Shown here one piece after another: positions 21,411 to 26,970 of a stretch of 64,000 nt of DNA (positions are counted from its first letter, which is position 1; the number at the start of each line of letters is the position of its first letter). The notes beneath the pieces are model-generated. The model saw only the letters and a list, made by a program, of their open reading frames with translations, was not told the origin of the DNA and made no database searches. This DNA comes from a virus (lineage: Duplodnaviria > Caudoviricetes). The stretch covers positions 29,822 to 93,821 of IMG/VR virus record IMGVR_UViG_3300010348_001730, one strand, 5' to 3'. The translations under genes and the position numbers were made by a program.

Positions 21411-21515
21411 TTATGACCAATTAATAGTCTTAACCCAGGCTACAATTTTAGCTCCCCAACCAAGGAAAGTTTCTAAAACCATACCTATGACAATACTGAT
21501 AATAGTTGATAGCAT
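21411..21515 (-). CDS. Small membrane peptide (34 aa, not in ORF track)
   Basis: MLSTIISIVIGMVLETFLGWGAKIVAWVKTINWS; start overlaps the vWA stop. Confidence 0.45.
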   Translation of the reverse strand: MLSTIISIVIGMVLETFLGWGAKIVAWVKTINWS

Positions 21516-22231
21516 TATTTAATAAGGTTTAAATTTCTTGCTTGAGCAACCCATCCAGGAAACTCATTCATCAATGACGGATAGAGTTGAGAGTCTGGGA
21601 AATTCTTAATATCTGAGATACTAAAGAAATTCGCATTATCAATTTTTCTACCTTTTAGATCATCAAGTTTTTGTAAAAAACTAAATGATTCTCTTCCAAT
21701 ACCTACAAATTGTATGAAAAAGCCTTGTTCAGACATACTTCTTACAATATCTTCAGTTTCTGATCTATCAAAATTATCACCATCAGTGATAAAAATGATA
21801 TATACAGGATCTTTCATTTTACCAGGAGTACCGCCAAGACCAAGGAATGAACCTTGTTTTTTAGGTGCAAAATCACGTTGAATTTCTCTCAACACTGGAG
21901 CATAATTAGTACCACCCATAGAGTATTTACCAATTACTTTATTTTGAATGTAGCCATCCAAATTTTTCAAAGTGATGTTTTCAGGTAATTTAACTGAGCC
22001 GTTTTCAAACAAATAGAAATCAACTTCTCCATTGTCATCAAAAGCTAAACCAAGTGGTAAAATTCTTTCTACGGTATCTTGTACAGTACCGTTTGCATAA
22101 AGACTTCCCATTGAACCAGAGTAGTCCAGAGCCAGTACAACTTGAGCTTTTTGAGAACCTAATCCCATATCTTTTTTCAAGTTAAGTACTGACTCTTTTC
22201 TTTCTCTAAGCTTTACTAAATCTAACGCCAT
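21515..22231 (-). CDS. vWA domain protein (TerF-associated type)
   Basis: MIDAS DYSGSM, FDDNG, GGTNYAP, FITDG, QFVGIG, DNANFF. Confidence 0.85.
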   Translation of the reverse strand: MALDLVKLRERKESVLNLKKDMGLGSQKAQVVLALDYSGSMGSLYANGTVQDTVERILPLGLAFDDNGEVDFYLFENGSVKLPENITLKNLDGYIQNKVIGKYSMGGTNYAPVLREIQRDFAPKKQGSFLGLGGTPGKMKDPVYIIFITDGDNFDRSETEDIVRSMSEQGFFIQFVGIGRESFSFLQKLDDLKGRKIDNANFFSISDIKNFPDSQLYPSLMNEFPGWVAQARNLNLIK

Positions 22232-22232
22232 T

Positions 22233-22871
22233 TTATTGATGTTGAGATAATAAAGCGTTTAAATCTCCTGTAAATCCTTGACCTAAAGCACGAACTTTTA
22301 GATCTTCATTGTTCCAGTAGATTTCACCAACAATTACACCTGATTCAATTGAGAAATCCTCTTTCAAATCATAGCGAATATGTTCTTTACCATCAGAACC
22401 TTTGATGCTGCAATAAGCTCCATCAACCATTCCCATAGCTTGTTTTCTCTTATCTGCTTCGTAAATATTTACGGCAATAAGAATTTTCTTGTCTTTTGGT
22501 AATAGAGAAGAATTGATGAATAAAGTTTCATCATCTCCATCACCTTGGCCGGTACGATTGTCTTTAGTAATTACAACAGGAGCATTTGCTAAAATACTCT
22601 TAGCTGTGGCCACCACATCTGTTGAAGAAGCATACGCGACATCAGAAGAGGTTCCTTTACCATCAACATTACCATAGAAAAAGAAATTTGCTTCTGTAGC
22701 ACCTTTTCCATCACTGGCATTAACAATAAGACCAACAACATCAAGATCATAATCATCTTTGACACTGCTGTCATTTTTAACATTCCAACCTAAACCAACT
22801 TGAAGTTCATTTAAGTTTAGATCAGCTTTCTCTAACTTGAGATTCTGACCTTTTTGAAGTGATAGTGACAT
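22233..22871 (-). CDS. terD: TerD-family stress protein
   Basis: SLQKGQ, GLGW, DLD, DNRTGQGDGDDE, GEIY, ALGQG. Confidence 0.88.
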   Translation of the reverse strand: MSLSLQKGQNLKLEKADLNLNELQVGLGWNVKNDSSVKDDYDLDVVGLIVNASDGKGATEANFFFYGNVDGKGTSSDVAYASSTDVVATAKSILANAPVVITKDNRTGQGDGDDETLFINSSLLPKDKKILIAVNIYEADKRKQAMGMVDGAYCSIKGSDGKEHIRYDLKEDFSIESGVIVGEIYWNNEDLKVRALGQGFTGDLNALLSQHQ

Positions 22872-22891
22872 ATAAAAAATTTAAAAATTTA

Positions 22892-23617
22892 CTAATTGTT
22901 TTTCTTACCAAACATGATAGGAAATAGGAATACAGTCAATGTAATAGCACTAAATATTAAATCAGTGTTATGTCCATTAAGAATTGCGTGAATTTTTGTT
23001 TCTGGAAAGAAATCAAATATTCCTGCTAAAGCCATTTTAAGACCTAATAGTAATATTACGTAAAATACACTTAATTCTAATGAAGGATATTTATTAAGTA
23101 TTGATGAAAAATATTGTGCAACAAATCTCATAGCTAATATACCTAATGCTACAGCACTACATACAATCCAGAAATTATTACTTAGACTGACAACTGCTAC
23201 CAGATTATCAATACTAAATACAATATCTAAAAATTCCACCATTACTACTGTAGTCCAGAATTTATTTAAACCTATCCAATTACATAATTTTTGTAACCAA
23301 CCTGGTTCTTTTCCTTCTTCAACACTATCAGGTTCTACTGTTAAATGTGTGTAAAACAAATGACATAAATACAATCCACCTGCAATTTTAAACCACGCTC
23401 CTACAGAAGGATTATAAATAATCCAACTTACAAAAGCTAAAGATAATCCTCTAAAAAGATAAGCTCCAATAATACCATATGTCATGGCATGTTTTCTTTG
23501 TTTCTCATCTTTTAAATTTTTGTTAACAATAACTGCAATAACGCTCGCATTATCAACACTAAGTATAACTTCAATCAATAAGATATTAAGAAATACTAAA
23601 ATACTTGTTGTAATCAT
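22892..23617 (-). CDS. terC: TerC-family membrane protein
   Basis: EVILSVDNA, GAYLFRG, DIVFSIDN, GILAMRF. Confidence 0.9.
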   Translation of the reverse strand: MITTSILVFLNILLIEVILSVDNASVIAVIVNKNLKDEKQRKHAMTYGIIGAYLFRGLSLAFVSWIIYNPSVGAWFKIAGGLYLCHLFYTHLTVEPDSVEEGKEPGWLQKLCNWIGLNKFWTTVVMVEFLDIVFSIDNLVAVVSLSNNFWIVCSAVALGILAMRFVAQYFSSILNKYPSLELSVFYVILLLGLKMALAGIFDFFPETKIHAILNGHNTDLIFSAITLTVFLFPIMFGKKNN

Positions 23618-24845: not shown

Positions 24846-24859
24846 AATTATAAATTTTG

Positions 24860-24945
24860 TACTCAGAGCGGGACTTGAACCCGCACGGACATTGCTGTTC
24901 ACTGGATTTTAAGTCCAGCGTGTCTACCAATTTCACCATCCGAGC
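24860..24945 (-). tRNA. tRNA-Leu(TAA)
   Basis: CTGGA-CTTAAAA-TCCAG anticodon arm, long variable arm, GGTTCAAGTCC T arm. Confidence 0.95.
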
Positions 24946-25119: not shown

Positions 25120-25121
25120 AG

Positions 25122-25195
25122 TATCTCCAGTAGGATTCAAACCTACGACCTATAGGTTAGAAACCTATTGCTCTATTCAACTGAGCTATGGAGAC
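25122..25195 (-). tRNA. tRNA-Arg(TCT)
   Basis: GTCTCCA/TGGAGAT acceptor, ATAGG-TTTCTAA-CCTAT anticodon arm. Confidence 0.93.
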
Positions 25196-25342: not shown

Positions 25343-25372
25343 TTTTGTTTTTATGAGGAATATCCTCTTTAG

Positions 25373-25729
25373 TGGAGACGGGGAGAGTCGAACTCCCGTC
25401 ATACTAATTTTTCAATAAAATAAATTTACAGCTTTTAGGGTCAAAAGTTTTTGACTACCACCACTTCATTTTATGGTTGAAGAACCTCGATAGCAATTTT
25501 ATTAATTGTCAATTTCCTATTTAAGCTTAGGCAGCTACTAACATTGGTGCAACATAAGTTCCTTTACCAATAACAGTTTCGCTATTAAGAATATTATGAA
25601 CTACTTTCATGTTAGCTTTTACTTGGTTGTTTTCTACGTTTCCGTTTATTGAATTTCACCTTAGTTTACAGTTATCTCTCTGGCTGTTTATTTTACTTAC
25701 TAGATTCGCATTCAAATCCATTCGTCCCC
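25373..25729 (-). ncRNA. ssrA: tmRNA
   Basis: GGGGACG/CGTCTCC acceptor with G3-U70, T arm GGGAGTTCGACTCTCC, internal tag ORF ending LVAA-stop (25643-25527). Confidence 0.93.
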
Positions 25730-25842: not shown

Positions 25843-26935
25843 TCAGATTAATTTTAATAATTCAAATTTCAGTTTTGATTTTTTATTGTTGCTGTAATTA
25901 ATCTTTTCAACTTACATTTTTTTTTCGAGGACTAGTTGCTGACCAATTCGCATAGTTAAATTCGATTCGAACGAATATACACCAGTTTTAATCTAAAATT
26001 GCTGTTAGTAAGTTTGTCAGATAACTCCGATATTCCACACCAAGTGCCTCGGCTATAGGGCTAGGGAATCGAACCCATTTCGTCTCTTGTGACAAAAAAG
26101 TGATAGAGTGAAATTTGCTGTTTGTTATCTTATCAGTAGTGCTTTTTTTGAAGTAATCGGATTTGCAGTCTGAGTTTCATAAAAAATTTGCTGTGACACT
26201 ACTTTTCAATTTCCATTTTAACGAATACAAATTAAAAGTTTGTTGTTTATAAATTTGCTGTTAGGAAATTTATCAGCTTTCATTTTTTGACAACCAGTCT
26301 TCAAGATAGGAATCGAACCTCTCTAGAGCATAATGGAGCTTAAATGTAATTTGCTGTTAGAAAGCTTTTCAGATCATATAATAATACGTGCTCTAACCAA
26401 CTGAGCTAAAGATAAGACATTCTTATCCTCTCAGACTCGAACTGAGGACCACGAGGTTGACAGCCTATTTATAAATTGCAGTAAATGATCTTGTCAGAAT
26501 GTATTTTACGTTGTGTTACATTACACCATGTTGAACGAATGTTCTCACTGGATTTTTACCAGAACCACGGCACCAAAAGCTTTTAAATTGCTGTTGACAT
26601 TCTTATCAGGATACATCTGGTTTTTCAAAGTATAGAAAGTTTTGAATTGCTGTAAATATCCTTATCCTCCTAGTTTCCTAGGGGATTAAATGAATGAGTT
26701 TTCATTATGTTTACAATCAGACATTTAGTATTGAACAGGTGTAGTTTCAATATCTGAAGTTATTAAATAATGTTTCTCATTTTCGTAGCGTGTCTAATTT
26801 TTAGTATTTAGATTTGCTGTTTCTACACCTAAATATCAGCTTGTTATAGCTGTATTGTTAGGGGTGCTCACTTGCAGGCTGTGAGTTAGTCTTAATATAG
26901 GTAAGATTTATAATTGTGAGTTTGCAGTTCATAAC
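25843..26935 (-). ncRNA. Tandem array of ~10-11 Y-RNA-like cassettes (stem-ACWGCAA-cargo-stem) carrying tRNA fragments
   Basis: TTGCWGT on + strand at 25889, 25999, 26115, 26188, 26255, 26351, 26476, 26588, 26647, 26814, 26922, each enclosed by its own 5-8 bp inverted repeat. Confidence 0.8.
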
Positions 26936-26970
26936 CTGACAGGTTAAGTAATGCCGTCCACCCCATATCT

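What the first reader, a model, noticed from the sequence alone, without database searches (positions are those of the whole stretch)
26084..26580. Array cargo includes isolated anticodon stem-loops for different tRNAs (possible nuclease decoys)
Seen (minus strand): ACAAA-CTTTTAA-TTTGT, a perfect Lys(UUU) anticodon arm (26227-26243); TCAGA-CTGCAAA-TCCGA, Cys(GCA) (26157-26173); CTTTT-TTGTCAC-AAGAG, Asp(GUC), followed by a T arm (26084-26100); AGG-CTGTCAA-CCT, GUC (26454-26466); GC-TTTTGGT-GC, a Gln(UUG)-like loop with a weak stem (26570-26580). Established: PrrC and PARIS AriB cut tRNA-Lys, RloC-type nucleases cut wobble-U tRNAs, colicin E5 cuts QUN tRNAs including Asp, and some VapCs cut tRNA-Cys. 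Inference: the cassettes display protein-stabilised anticodon decoys that soak up host anticodon nucleases. Alternatively they recruit tRNA-modifying enzymes or synthetases.
Basis: partly seen in the sequence, partly recalled or inferred. Interest (0 to 1): 0.88.

Follow-up and report, generated by a model that had tools for sequence, protein, structure and literature searches.

The report
Phage RNAs displaying tRNA anticodon arms
A crAss-like phage encodes, just after a Ro60-like ring protein, about eleven small RNAs that share one "handle" and whose variable parts copy pieces of tRNAs, including anticodon arms of tRNA-Lys, -Cys and -Asp. These copies are conserved in related phages, but whether they act as decoys for tRNA-cutting defence enzymes is untested.

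Summary
All five stem-loops are at the stated coordinates on the minus strand. They lie in the variable cargo of 11 tandem small-RNA units (25845-26944). Each unit has a covarying 7-8 bp AG...CU closing stem plus an invariant ACAGCAA. The array follows a DUF2828/DUF7788 protein whose model matches Ro60 full-length. Lys and Cys are isolated hairpins. Asp carries a T arm. The two weak ones sit at the anticodon-arm position of circularly permuted, closed-acceptor tRNA-like bodies.

In this 26% GC window the count alone is not above background, and the hairpins are thermodynamically marginal. Across 122 units from about 60 related phage loci the signal is strong:
- Only 7-nt loops are enriched.
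- YU-NNN-RN non-T loops number 39, against 5.7 in shuffles.
- Exact real-tRNA loops number 14, against 0.4.
- Canonical 7-mers are stem-flanked in 67% of cargo cases, against 12% in background.

The anticodon mimicry is real. The decoy function is plausible (about 35%) but unproven; tethering to tRNA repair or modification enzymes is a serious rival.

This scan has found the same protein-plus-handle-RNA system many times on other DNA. I found no publication describing it.

The parts
26971..28650 (-). 559-aa DUF2828/DUF7788 protein, a Ro60-like TROVE-type helical ring plus a vWA domain with an intact MIDAS motif (D351-x-S353-x-S355, T423, D454). It is the presumed partner of the handle RNAs.
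   Evidence: Pfam DUF7788 E = 5.8e-10. PHROG 850 'RNA-binding protein' E = 7e-33. AF2 model pLDDT 71.5. The top 11 Foldseek PDB hits are all Ro60/TROVE, full-length: 9KOP 9.5e-7, then 1YVP, 2I91, 2NVO, 9NEN. ESM Atlas places it in DUF2828/DUF7788 viral clusters. Invariant MIDAS residues.
26836..26944 (-). Unit 0, a loose unit with an ACUGCAA variant of the motif and an imperfect closing stem (GUUAU/AUAAC with a bulge).
   Evidence: Read from the sequence. Low confidence. Agrees with first-reader note e1-5914250.
26737..26830 (-). Unit 1: closing stem AGGUGUAG/CUACACCU, then ACAGCAAAUC and cargo without a clear tRNA part.
   Evidence: Sequence; motif hit at 26812-26820.
26608..26662 (-). Unit 2: closing stem AGGAUAU/GUAUCCU, then UUACAGCAAUU. 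The cargo hairpin is UUCAAA-(11 nt)-UUUGAA. It is the orthologue of units that carry UUUNGGU loops in other phages.
   Evidence: Rfam Dicty_Class_I_RNA partial hit, 32 bits, E = 7.5e-4 on the array.
26496..26603 (-). Unit 3: a degenerate, circularly permuted tRNA-like body. GC-UUUUGGU-GC (26570-26580) sits at the anticodon-arm position.
   Evidence: Orthologous units in L006 and L008 keep a T arm, a closed acceptor stem and a D arm.
26371..26491 (-). Unit 4: a complete, circularly permuted tRNA-Asp-like body with a closed acceptor stem. Its parts are the anticodon arm AGG-CUGUCAA-CCU (26454-26466), T arm (26430-26446), acceptor hairpin closed by AAUGU (26410-26429) and D arm (26389-26406).
   Evidence: Rfam YrlA partial hit at 26387-26453, 28.1 bits. 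ARAGORN calls tRNA-Asp(GUC) in 65 of 256 trimmed, un-permuted versions. The L010 orthologue has the compensatory stem AGC/GCU and the loop CUCUUAC.
26275..26366 (-). Unit 5: cargo with a T-arm-like hairpin (GAGG-UUCGAUU-CCUA) and further small hairpins.
26208..26270 (-). Unit 6: closing stem AAUUUCC/GGAAAUU (AA...UU in place of AG...CU, a compensatory change). The cargo is an isolated tRNA-Lys(UUU) anticodon-arm mimic, ACAAA-CUUUUAA-UUUGU, at 26227-26243.
   Evidence: The same loop with different covarying stems occurs in L001 (twice), L002, L035, L043, L101 and L106.
26135..26203 (-). Unit 7: closing stem AGUAGUG(U)/(G)CACUACU. The cargo is an isolated tRNA-Cys(GCA) anticodon-arm mimic, UCAGA-CUGCAAA-UCCGA, at 26157-26173, with one A.C mismatch.
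   Evidence: The arm appears in the unconstrained minimum-free-energy fold. CUGCAAA hairpins also occur in L001, L007 and L013.
26019..26130 (-). Unit 8: closing stem AGAUAAC/GUUAUCU. The cargo is a tRNA-Asp(GUC)-type anticodon arm, CUUUU-UUGUCAC-AAGAG (26084-26100), then a 7-nt linker, a T arm (26065-26077) and a conserved 3' module.
   Evidence: The 3' module is conserved in L003, L011 and L104.
25909..26014 (-). Unit 9: cargo with a perfect T-arm hairpin (AUUCG-UUCGAAU-CGAAU) and a D-arm-like segment.
25845..25904 (-). Unit 10, the last unit: closing stem AGAUUAAUU/AAUUAAUCU. The cargo hairpin is UCAAA-ACUGAAA-UUUGA, a 7-nt loop that does not fit YU-NNN-RN.
   Evidence: Weak Dicty_Class_I hit, 17.9 bits.
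25372..25729 (-). tmRNA gene directly downstream of the array, followed by tRNA-Arg(UCU) at 25121-25195 and tRNA-Leu(UAA) at 24859-24945. All lie on the same strand, so this is context: one co-directional RNA island.
   Evidence: ARAGORN; Rfam tmRNA 72.3 bits and tRNA hits.

Best explanation
The stem-loops are tRNA anticodon-arm mimics. They are carried as interchangeable cargo by a family of handle-tagged, Y-RNA-like small RNAs.

Anatomy. Each unit is closed by a 7-8 bp stem that starts AG and ends CU. An unpaired ACAGCAA(A/U)U follows directly on the 5' side. This handle is most likely bound by the Ro60-like DUF2828 protein encoded just upstream. In this phage, units 2-10 abut and are separated only by GAYA. 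The array is therefore probably cut out of one transcript that also carries the tmRNA and tRNAs.

Cargo. It ranges from a bare anticodon arm (Lys, Cys), through anticodon arm plus T arm (Asp), to whole circularly permuted tRNA bodies whose acceptor stem is closed by a loop, so they cannot be charged.

Mechanism I commit to: molecular mimicry. The particle presents anticodon arms, and other tRNA parts, to proteins that recognise tRNAs. The leading candidate targets are host tRNA-cutting defence or toxin nucleases, which the RNAs would occupy or absorb as a decoy or sponge.

Basis for each step:
- Shown: the unit architecture, covariation of the closing stem, tRNA derivation of the cargo, enrichment and conservation of anticodon-type loops, and the Ro60-like fold.
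- Strongly inferred: binding of the protein to the handle, and processing of the array.
- Inferred only: the target class. Odds: decoy for anticodon nucleases about 35%; tether or bait for tRNA repair, modification or charging enzymes about 25-30%; other, the remainder.
For: Architecture:
- Direct reading and my parser find the units in the window, with covarying stems.
- RNAalifold on 38 short units from 14 loci predicts only the closing stem. All 8 pairs show compensatory changes, there are no broken pairs in positions 1-7, and ACAGCAA is invariant.
- ACAGCAAWU occurs 9 times in the window, 8 of them in the array, against 1.9 expected.

Partner protein:
- The fold matches Ro60/TROVE full-length.
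- The same gene-plus-array pairing is seen in Leptolyngbya phage Lbo-JY46, in most of the 15 first and 80 further IMG/VR loci, in MAG contigs, and in Enterococcus phiSHEF16 and Bacillus phage Nate, whose proteins are only about 23-25% identical.

tRNA derivation:
- 45 T loops in cargo against 0.3 in shuffles.
- A partial YrlA hit.
- Un-permuted long units are called as tRNA-Asp, Met, Lys, Thr and Leu by ARAGORN.

Anticodon mimicry:
- Enrichment statistics.
- The loop profile shifts toward real tRNAs at positions 32, 33, 37 and 38 with no pattern imposed.
- Identical canonical loops sit on different, complementary stems in different phages: CUUUUAA on ACAAA/UUUGU, UCAAU/AUUGA, UUCUA/UGGAA and GAAAU/AUUUC.
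- Several arrays hold panels of different canonical loops. L050 has CUUCUAA, CUGAUAA and CUGUAAA in consecutive units.

Context for a tRNA conflict:
- The array lies between the Ro60-like gene and tmRNA, tRNA-Arg and tRNA-Leu.
- An RNA ligase gene lies two genes from the homologue in Erwinia phage Kaldavass.
- From established knowledge, not tested here: Ro60 stabilises and is regulated by Y RNAs, YrlA mimics tRNA (PMC4201824), and isolated anticodon stem-loops are substrates of PrrC and colicin E5.
Against: - There are no expression, processing or binding data.
- In this window alone, the number of loop-plus-stem matches is no higher than the genome background.
- The window's arms are predicted to be unstable by themselves. 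The Lys arm is not in the minimum-free-energy fold.
- Fewer than half of the short units carry an anticodon-type loop by the strict stem-and-loop criterion (26 of 63). Others carry unrelated hairpins.
- Anticodon triplets change freely between orthologous units: GUC against CUU, and UUG, UAG and UGG in one class. Some are unnatural (AUA, AAU, ACA). This fits drift on a structural U-turn loop as well as an arms race.
- The Lys excess is partly compositional in U-rich loops.
- The phage has no RtcB, and no conserved neighbour gene accompanies the module.
- The host and its nucleases are unknown.
- Scan notes, which I did not verify, report cellular homologues beside RtcB. That points to repair or sensing rather than anti-defence decoys.
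Confidence: 0.5

Rival explanations
1. Tether or adaptor model, as in Ro60-Y RNA-PNPase. The tRNA-like cargo recruits tRNA-handling enzymes to the Ro60-like ring, or brings the ring to damaged tRNAs. Candidate enzymes are RNA ligase/RtcB, CCA-adding enzyme, modification enzymes, RNase P/Z and aminoacyl-tRNA synthetases. The particle would then act in tRNA repair, quality control or sensing of tRNA damage, not as a sponge.
For: - The protein has the Ro60 fold.
- Y RNAs tether Ro60 to PNPase, and YrlA is modified by tRNA enzymes (PMC4201824). Thermus phage Ro60 forms RYPER-like complexes with host PNPase (PMC12135203).
- The cargo shows T arms, D arms and whole bodies, not just anticodon arms.
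- An RNA ligase gene lies near the homologue in Erwinia phage Kaldavass.
- Scan note e1-5078513 reports a bacterial cassette with RtcB. I did not check it.
- The displayed anticodons are mostly ones read by their synthetases, and Leu, Ser and Ala are rare (4 of 56). The numbers are small and the units are not independent.
Against: - This phage has no RtcB, and no conserved partner gene accompanies the module.
- A bare 17-nt anticodon arm is a poor ligand for most tRNA-body-reading enzymes.
- The panel-like diversity of anticodons within one array is not obviously needed for a tether.
Confidence: 0.27
2. YUNR U-turn display for RNA-RNA pairing. The 7-nt loops are generic U-turn loops, as in antisense RNAs. 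They would present three to five bases for kissing contacts with target RNAs, guiding those RNAs to the Ro60-like ring. In this reading the resemblance to anticodon loops is structural convergence.
For: - U33 and R37 are the YUNR signature.
- The triplets vary freely between orthologues and include unnatural anticodons.
- From knowledge: Ro60 handles misfolded RNAs.
Against: - Positions 32 and 38, which lie outside YUNR, also shift to the tRNA profile.
- Exact canonical tRNA loops number 14 against 0.42 expected.
- The loops sit at the correct position of full tRNA bodies with T and D arms.
- G at position 37 follows a G at position 36 in nearly every hairpin that passes the strict stem criterion, as in real tRNAs; the looser set has a few exceptions.
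Confidence: 0.08
3. Evolutionary relics. The units arose from tRNA genes captured behind the handle. Only the handle, and perhaps the T arm or overall shape, is functional. The anticodon arms persist by descent and are decaying.
For: - Weak or mismatched stems in the window: A.C in the Cys arm, a 3-bp stem and a 2-bp stem.
- Marginal predicted stability.
- A degenerate body in unit 3.
- Many units lack anticodon-type loops.
Against: - Identical canonical loops are kept on stems that changed by compensatory substitutions, across phages whose proteins are only 48-70% identical.
- Canonical 7-mers are stem-flanked in 67% of cargo cases, against 12% in background.
- Short units consist of little else than the arm, at a fixed distance of 8-14 nt after the motif.
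Confidence: 0.1
4. Chance matches in A+T-rich DNA: the five hairpins are what any 1 kb of 26% GC sequence would give.
For: The relaxed pattern occurs 5.3-5.6 times per kb per strand genome-wide, against 4 in the array. CUUUUAA alone occurs 66 times on the minus strand of the genome.
Against: All comparative tests argue against it, as do recurrence in Lbo-JY46 and ARAGORN recognition of the un-permuted unit 4 as tRNA-Asp.
Confidence: 0.03

Closest known systems
Bacterial and mycobacteriophage Ro60 (Rsr) with YrlA-type Y RNAs (Rfam RF02553; Chen et al. 2014, PMC4201824)
   Same: A ring protein with a TROVE-type helical repeat plus a vWA/MIDAS domain, encoded next to small RNAs on the same strand. 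The RNAs are closed by a stem joining their 5' and 3' ends. They carry a tRNA-like module with a T arm, a D arm and an acceptor stem closed by a loop. Unit 4 gives a partial YrlA hit (28 bits).
   Different: The protein is not recognised by the Pfam TROVE model; it falls in the DUF2828/DUF7788 family. The binding motif is ACAGCAA next to an AG...CU stem, not GNCGAAN0-1G or a bulged helix. There are up to about 11 units in a head-to-tail array rather than 1-4 genes. Many units carry only an anticodon arm, a part that YrlA lacks because its anticodon stem is replaced by the Ro60-binding stem. In some units the tRNA body is broken between the D and anticodon arms, so a full anticodon arm is displayed.
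Thermus phage phiLo Ro60 with Yrl1/Yrl2 (PDB 9KOP, 9L5Y; PMC12135203)
   Same: A phage-encoded Ro60-type ring with phage-encoded partner RNAs beside the gene. It is the best structural match to my model (Foldseek E = 9.5e-7).
   Different: Its RNAs carry the CGAA motif, there are two of them, and no anticodon-arm cargo is described. Sequence identity to the window protein is about 15%.
Dictyostelium Class I RNAs (Rfam RF01414; Kjellin et al. 2021, PMC7919456)
   Same: The same design. The RNA starts (A)AG and has a 6-7 bp covarying stem joining the ends. A conserved single-stranded motif holding UUACAGCAA sits directly after the 5' strand, followed by a variable body, and the RNA ends CUG. Three window units hit the model (32, 17.9 and 16 bits).
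   Different: All hits are below the gathering score of 41.5. Class I RNAs are eukaryotic, dispersed genes with their own promoter. No tRNA-like cargo has been reported. Their known direct binder is an RRM protein (Rnp1A/CIBP), and they are stated to be unique to Dictyostelia.
Phage answers to tRNA-targeting defences: T4 Pnkp/Rnl1 repair of PrrC-cut tRNA-Lys, T5-type phage tRNAs that replace or evade cleaved host tRNAs, and RNA anti-CRISPR repeat decoys (from my own knowledge, not checked here)
   Same: The same presumed conflict over host tRNAs. RNA anti-CRISPRs set a precedent for phage-encoded arrays of RNA mimics that occupy a defence protein.
   Different: None of these uses non-chargeable anticodon-arm mimics, and none is linked to a Ro60-like protein. 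No decoy of an anticodon nuclease has been described to my knowledge.

Membership tests
Handle-tagged RNAs partnered with DUF2828 (undescribed family seen repeatedly in this scan) | A 7-8 bp closing stem joining the 5' and 3' ends, covarying between units, usually starting AG and ending CU | tested here: met
   Nine abutting units plus two looser ones in the window. RNAalifold on 38 units: all 8 pairs show compensatory changes and there are no broken pairs in positions 1-7.
Handle-tagged RNAs partnered with DUF2828 (undescribed family seen repeatedly in this scan) | Unpaired ACAGCAA 0-2 nt after the 5' strand of the stem | tested here: met
   Invariant in 38 of 38 aligned units. Eight of the nine window matches to ACAGCAAWU lie in the array. 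Two of the eleven units carry the variant ACUGCAA.
Handle-tagged RNAs partnered with DUF2828 (undescribed family seen repeatedly in this scan) | Encoded within a few kb of a DUF2828/DUF7788 gene on the same strand | tested here: met
   The array starts 27 nt after the stop codon of the 559-aa gene. The same holds in L001-L016 and further loci.
Ro60/Rsr - YrlA Y RNA system | Partner protein with a TROVE ring plus a vWA domain | tested here: inconclusive
   The fold matches Ro60 full-length (Foldseek E 1e-6 to 3.5e-4, TM 0.31-0.48) and the MIDAS residues are conserved. However, there is no Pfam TROVE hit and no PDB sequence hit. It is a distant relative, not an orthologue.
Ro60/Rsr - YrlA Y RNA system | Ro60-binding motif GNCGAAN0-1G, or a bulged helix, near the 5' end (PMC4201824) | tested here: not met
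   The units carry ACAGCAA instead. No GNCGAA motif sits at the 5' stem.
Ro60/Rsr - YrlA Y RNA system | tRNA-like domain with a T arm, a D arm and an acceptor stem closed by a loop | tested here: met
   Unit 4 (26371-26491) aligns to the YrlA model over the T arm, closed acceptor and D arm. ARAGORN calls tRNA-Asp after un-permuting.
Ro60/Rsr - YrlA Y RNA system | Score above the Rfam gathering threshold (69 bits) | tested here: not met
   28.1 bits, with only positions 24-84 of 114 matched.
Dictyostelium Class I RNA (RF01414) | Start (A)AG, 6-bp terminal stem, 11-nt motif holding UUACAGCAA after the 5' strand, end CUG(U) | tested here: met
   Unit 2 matches all four features. Others match with ACAGCAA and CU followed by GA. 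Features taken from PMC7919456.
Dictyostelium Class I RNA (RF01414) | Score above the Rfam gathering threshold (41.5 bits); dictyostelid genome with an upstream DUSE promoter | tested here: not met
   Best score 32 bits. This is a phage genome. DUSE does not apply.
tRNA anticodon arm (as a structural mimic) | 5-bp stem closing a 7-nt loop with Y32, U33, R37 and a natural anticodon with its usual position 37/38 context | tested here: met
   Lys (CUUUUAA, 5 of 5 pairs), Cys (CUGCAAA, 4 of 5) and Asp (UUGUCAC, 5 of 5 including one G.U) meet it. The 26454 loop has only a 3-bp stem and the 26570 loop a 2-3 bp stem. CUGCAAA and the CUGUCAC-type loop occur in real tRNAs of related loci.
tRNA anticodon arm (as a structural mimic) | Stable folding of the arm | tested here: inconclusive
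   Nearest-neighbour dG >= 0 for the isolated arms, and pairing probability about 0.17 for the Lys arm. Comparative covariation supports pairing.
Decoy or inhibitor of anticodon nucleases (functional class; no described family) | Binding to, or cleavage by, a tRNA-targeting nuclease, and protection of host or phage tRNA | not testable with these tools
   The host and its nucleases are unknown. No expression or cleavage data could be obtained.

The most novel reading that the evidence does not exclude
The Ro60-like DUF2828 particle is a modular display platform. One protein-binding handle carries a phage-specific, fast-evolving panel of non-chargeable tRNA mimics (anticodon arms, T arms, whole permuted bodies). 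The panel neutralises, or reports on, the host's tRNA-cutting immune nucleases. This would make it an RNA-based counter-defence as general as phage tRNA sets.

The same handle defines the unexplained Class I RNAs of Dictyostelium. The particle may therefore span viruses, bacteria and eukaryotes. If so, the protein of unknown function pulled down with a Class I RNA (DDB_G0281243) may be its eukaryotic partner.
Probability: 0.3. Interest if true: 0.92.

Novelty: new variant of a known kind. Interest (0 to 1): 0.8.

Why it matters
Three reasons.

1. It gives the large DUF2828/DUF7788 family a candidate RNA ligand and a link to tRNA biology. One profile search scored more than 2,000 members, and the family is found in 151 phage records, including Listeria, Enterococcus, Bacillus and jumbo phages.

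2. It extends the Ro60/Y-RNA concept. A single particle type could carry many interchangeable tRNA-part mimics, including bare anticodon arms, which have not been described as Y-RNA cargo.

3. tRNA cleavage is a common anti-phage strategy (PrrC, RloC, PARIS, retron and toxin-antitoxin effectors, Cas13). If the mimics bind or absorb such nucleases, this would be a new RNA-based counter-defence, and the anticodon panel of a phage would report which host tRNAs are under attack.

The hypothesis can be tested directly in laboratory strains. The shared handle also makes the long-unexplained Dictyostelium Class I RNAs approachable.

Tried and rejected
- Host identification for comparing anticodon stems with host tRNAs. 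The genome-contig scan returned only MAG contigs binned to very different phyla (Micavibrio, PVC, Bacteroidales, Richelia, Myxococcales, Ignavibacteria), so these are probably phage contigs. The terminase places the phage among crAss-like phages of Bacteroidota, but no specific host is known.
- Promoter and terminator scan of the array: nothing above shuffles, and the sigma-70 consensus may not apply to Bacteroidota.
- RtcB in the phage genome: none.
- A conserved partner gene: the 132-aa ORF upstream (28655-29053) and two nearby ORFs have no relative in any fetched locus and no Pfam or PHROG family.
- Whether Dictyostelium DDB_G0281243 is a DUF2828 protein could not be settled. The 2011 pull-down paper is not held. 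The proteome supplement is truncated before that gene. The profile search returned only close phage relatives in its top 120.
- Literature: 'DUF2828' gives five unrelated papers. Searches on anticodon nuclease, decoy and tRNA-like terms gave no description of this system.
- Counting loops in this window alone: rejected as a test, because the AT-rich background is just as dense.
- Unconstrained folding of single units: uninformative for the AU-rich arms.
Full report
**What is there**

The window is part of a 93.8-kb, 26% GC crAss-like phage genome. The terminase is 39-40% identical to those of crAss-like Bacteroides phages, and a phage DNA polymerase is present.

On the minus strand a 559-aa gene (26971-28650) is followed by an ORF-free stretch of about 1.1 kb. 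After that come a tmRNA (25372-25729), tRNA-Arg(UCU) and tRNA-Leu(UAA).

The ORF-free stretch is an array of 11 units. Each unit is closed by a 7-8 bp stem whose 5' strand begins AG (or AA) and whose 3' strand ends CU (or UU). The stem sequences differ from unit to unit but stay complementary: AGAAUGU/ACAUUCU, AGAUCAU/AUGAUCU, AGCUUUC/GAAAGCU, AAUUUCC/GGAAAUU, AGUAGUG/CACUACU, AGAUAAC/GUUAUCU. Directly after the 5' strand comes an unpaired ACAGCAA(A/U)U. The rest of each unit, the cargo, is variable. Nine units abut, separated only by GAYA.

ACAGCAAWU occurs 9 times in the window. Eight of these are in the array, against 1.9 expected.

**Check of the observation**

All five stem-loops are exactly at the stated coordinates.
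- The Lys-type arm (26227-26243) is essentially the whole cargo of unit 6. It has five Watson-Crick pairs and the loop CUUUUAA.
- The Cys-type arm (26157-26173) is essentially the whole cargo of unit 7. It has four of five pairs and the loop CUGCAAA.
- The Asp-type arm (26084-26100, loop UUGUCAC) is followed after a 7-nt linker by a T arm in unit 8.
- The 3-bp AGG-CUGUCAA-CCU lies in unit 4. This unit also holds a T arm, an acceptor helix closed by a 5-nt loop, and a D arm. When the cargo is un-permuted, ARAGORN calls tRNA-Asp(GUC) in 65 of 256 trimmed versions, and Rfam YrlA aligns to its T arm, closed acceptor and D arm. So this loop is not isolated. It is the anticodon arm of a circularly permuted tRNA-like body that cannot be charged.
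- GC-UUUUGGU-GC sits at the equivalent place in unit 3, a degenerate body of the same kind.

**Is it more than chance?**

Not by counting in this window. A relaxed search (YU-NNN-RN loop, at least 4 of 5 flanking pairs) finds 5.3-5.6 hits per kb per strand across the genome and 4 in the array. The arms are also predicted to be marginal on their own, with dG >= 0, and the Lys arm has a pairing probability of about 0.17 in context.

The answer comes from homologues. The closest named relative of the protein is in Leptolyngbya phage Lbo-JY46 (48% identity). It is followed by five units of the same design, whose cargo hairpins are UUCUA-CUUUUAA-UGGAA, CUUU-CUGCAAA-AAAG (followed, after a longer spacer, by a T arm), GAAAU-CUUUUAA-AUUUC and UUUCU-UUGCCU-AGAAA.

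I fetched 95 IMG/VR loci and 8 MAG contigs encoding relatives. From these I parsed 226 non-identical units, 122 of them with the GAYA tail. The results on those 122 units:
- Hairpins with 7-nt loops: 169 against 71 +/- 9 in dinucleotide shuffles. No other loop size came close (8-nt loops 97 against 69 +/- 7).
- T loops: 45 against 0.3.
- YU-NNN-RN loops that are not T loops: 39 against 5.65 +/- 2.56, with a maximum of 14 in 300 shuffles. In the 63 short units: 27 against 2.07.
- Loops identical to anticodon loops of the 169 real tRNAs found in the same loci: 14 against 0.42. This count excludes CUUUUAA, which occurs 6 times.
- Density in cargo: 4.5 per kb, against 1.2 per kb in the flanks of the same loci. 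The flanks include the real tRNA genes.
- A test that does not select on pairing: of 36 canonical anticodon-loop 7-mers found in cargo, 24 are flanked by at least 4 of 5 complementary pairs, against 12% in the background.
- With the handle constrained, minimum-free-energy folds of short units contain such a loop in 18 of 63 cases, against 0.3 +/- 0.6 in shuffles.
- With no pattern imposed, the base profile of all non-T 7-nt loops in cargo moves toward that of real tRNAs at positions 32, 33, 37 and 38.
- The same loop sits on different, complementary stems in different phages.

The anticodon-type loops are selected features of the family.

**The partner protein**

By sequence the protein matches only DUF7788 in Pfam, PHROG 850 'RNA-binding protein', and DUF2828/DUF7788 clusters in the ESM Atlas. 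It has no PDB hit by sequence.

An AlphaFold2 model from a 12-sequence alignment has pLDDT 71.5. Its top 11 Foldseek hits in the PDB are all Ro60/TROVE structures, aligned over the full length. The best is the Thermus phage phiLo Ro60 (9KOP, E = 9.5e-7), followed by Xenopus, human and Deinococcus Ro60 (9KOP identified in PMC12135203). The vWA MIDAS residues are invariant.

The protein-plus-handle-RNA pairing extends to proteins only about 23-25% identical. Enterococcus phage phiSHEF16 has three units upstream of its gene. One of them holds ACAU-CUGAAAA-AUGU (a tRNA-Phe loop) in a permuted body with a closed acceptor. Bacillus phage Nate has units between its 20-tRNA array and the gene.

RNAalifold on 38 short units from 14 loci predicts only the closing stem. 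Every pair shows compensatory changes, and ACAGCAA is invariant.

**How it most likely works**

By analogy with Ro60, which binds the terminal stem of Y RNAs while the rest of the RNA acts as a gate or tether (PMC4201824, PMC12135203), I infer that the protein holds the handle and the cargo is displayed. In short units the arm starts 8-14 nt after the motif, a roughly fixed geometry.

The cargo is tRNA-derived: T loops, D arms, and un-permuted units called as tRNA-Asp, Met, Lys, Thr and Leu. It cannot be charged, because the acceptor stems are closed. The mechanism class is therefore molecular mimicry of tRNA parts.

Which protein is being mimicked-to is open.
- Lys mimics are the commonest class (11 of 56 relaxed hits).
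- tRNA-Lys is the classic target of PrrC and PARIS (my knowledge).
- Isolated anticodon stem-loops are known substrates of such nucleases (my knowledge).
- Arrays carry panels of different canonical loops, for example Arg, Ile and Tyr in consecutive units of L050.
- The locus lies in a tRNA/tmRNA island.

Against it, or in favour of a tether or repair role:
- Other tRNA parts are displayed too.
- The triplets drift between orthologues, and some are unnatural.
- Fewer than half of the short units have an anticodon-type loop by the strict stem-and-loop criterion.
- This phage has no RtcB or conserved partner gene.
- Notes from this scan, which I did not verify, report cellular versions next to RtcB.

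My odds are: decoy or sponge about 35%, tether or bait for tRNA repair, modification or charging enzymes about 27%, relics about 10%, U-turn kissing loops about 8%, and chance about 3% (chance applies only to individual weak hairpins).

**Comparison with known systems**

The closest described system is Ro60 (Rsr) with YrlA-type Y RNAs. It shares the ring-protein fold, the end-joining stem and the tRNA-like domain with a closed acceptor. It differs in several ways:
- The binding motif is ACAGCAA rather than GNCGAAN0-1G.
- The protein family is different.
- The units are arranged as an array.
- Bare or complete anticodon arms are present, which YrlA lacks.
- The Rfam YrlA threshold is not reached (28 against 69 bits).

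The handle has the same design as Dictyostelium Class I RNAs: start AAG, a 6-bp stem, a motif holding UUACAGCAA, and end CUGU (PMC7919456). Three window units hit that Rfam model below threshold. [quoted passage not shown] Its preprint lists an uncharacterised protein, DDB_G0281243, among four proteins pulled down with a Class I RNA. I could not determine that protein's family.

**Novelty and standing**

My paper searches found no description of DUF2828-associated RNAs or of anticodon-arm decoys. Within this scan the same system has been noted many times on other genomes, including the Dictyostelium resemblance. Those are unchecked AI notes, and I count only what I tested here.

I class the finding as a new variant of a known kind: a Ro60/Y-RNA-type particle with a new handle and a new cargo type. 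It shows that anticodon-type loops in the cargo are far above chance across the family, and that two of the five loops belong to complete permuted tRNA bodies. It also adds two cautions: the window alone does not prove the point, and the arms are thermodynamically weak.

Noticed in passing
window 26608-26662, 25845-25904 and 26208-26270 (minus strand): Three short units hit the Rfam Dictyostelium Class I RNA model (32, 17.9 and 16 bits; gathering score 41.5). They share its whole design: (A)AG start, short covarying stem, UUACAGCAA after the 5' strand, and CUG end. The Class I preprint lists an uncharacterised protein, DDB_G0281243, among four proteins pulled down with a Class I RNA. Whether it is a DUF2828 protein could not be checked.
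   Followed up: partly
L061-L086 (IMG/VR 3300045988 clade), about 1.3 kb downstream of the DUF2828 gene, e.g. L070:5514-5590: ARAGORN calls tRNA-Lys/Asn genes with abnormal anticodon loops lacking U33 or Y32: CGUUUAA, AUUUUAA, CGGUUAA, AUGUUAA, GUGUUAA. All are preceded by a conserved 34-nt leader. tRNA-Asp genes with the loop CUGUCUA (U at position 37) also recur. This is reminiscent of phage tRNAs whose anticodon loops are altered to evade nucleases.
   Followed up: no
L013:2961-3033 (same contig as L041): A whole, non-permuted 73-nt tRNA-Tyr-like sequence with the loop UGGUAAA (G at position 33) sits as cargo inside a handle (ACAGCAAAUA before it, closing strand after it). Cargo can therefore be a complete tRNA shape.
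   Followed up: no
L004:4829-4886, L007:4875-4935, L012:5743-5800, L013:1854-1913, L050 and window 26608-26662: One orthologous class of short units keeps the stem UUCAAA/UUUGAA while the loop reads UUUUGGU, UUUAGGU, UUUGGGU or UAUGGGU. Only the middle 'anticodon' base varies, and G at position 37 always follows G at position 36. The window's copy has an 11-nt loop instead.
   Followed up: partly
L018:2380-2830 (Enterococcus phage phiSHEF16) and L017:2420-2870 (Bacillus phage Nate): In these distant phages the units lie upstream of the DUF2828 gene, next to large tRNA arrays. In phiSHEF16 each unit follows its own promoter-like TTGACA...TATAAT and ends CUUGUUACAU rather than CU-GAYA. The transcription and processing arrangement therefore differs between lineages.
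   Followed up: partly
window 25372-25729 (minus strand): The phage tmRNA is directly downstream of the array. ARAGORN reads an unusually long tag ending in LVAA.
   Followed up: no
window 21515-23617 (minus strand): TerC, TerD and a vWA-TerF-like gene (a Ter-type stress cluster) lie in the phage, co-directional with the RNA island.
   Followed up: no
window 26663-26736 (minus strand): A stretch of about 70 nt without a handle lies between units 1 and 2. It contains the hairpin CCUAG-GAAA-CUAGG. Its function is unknown.
   Followed up: no
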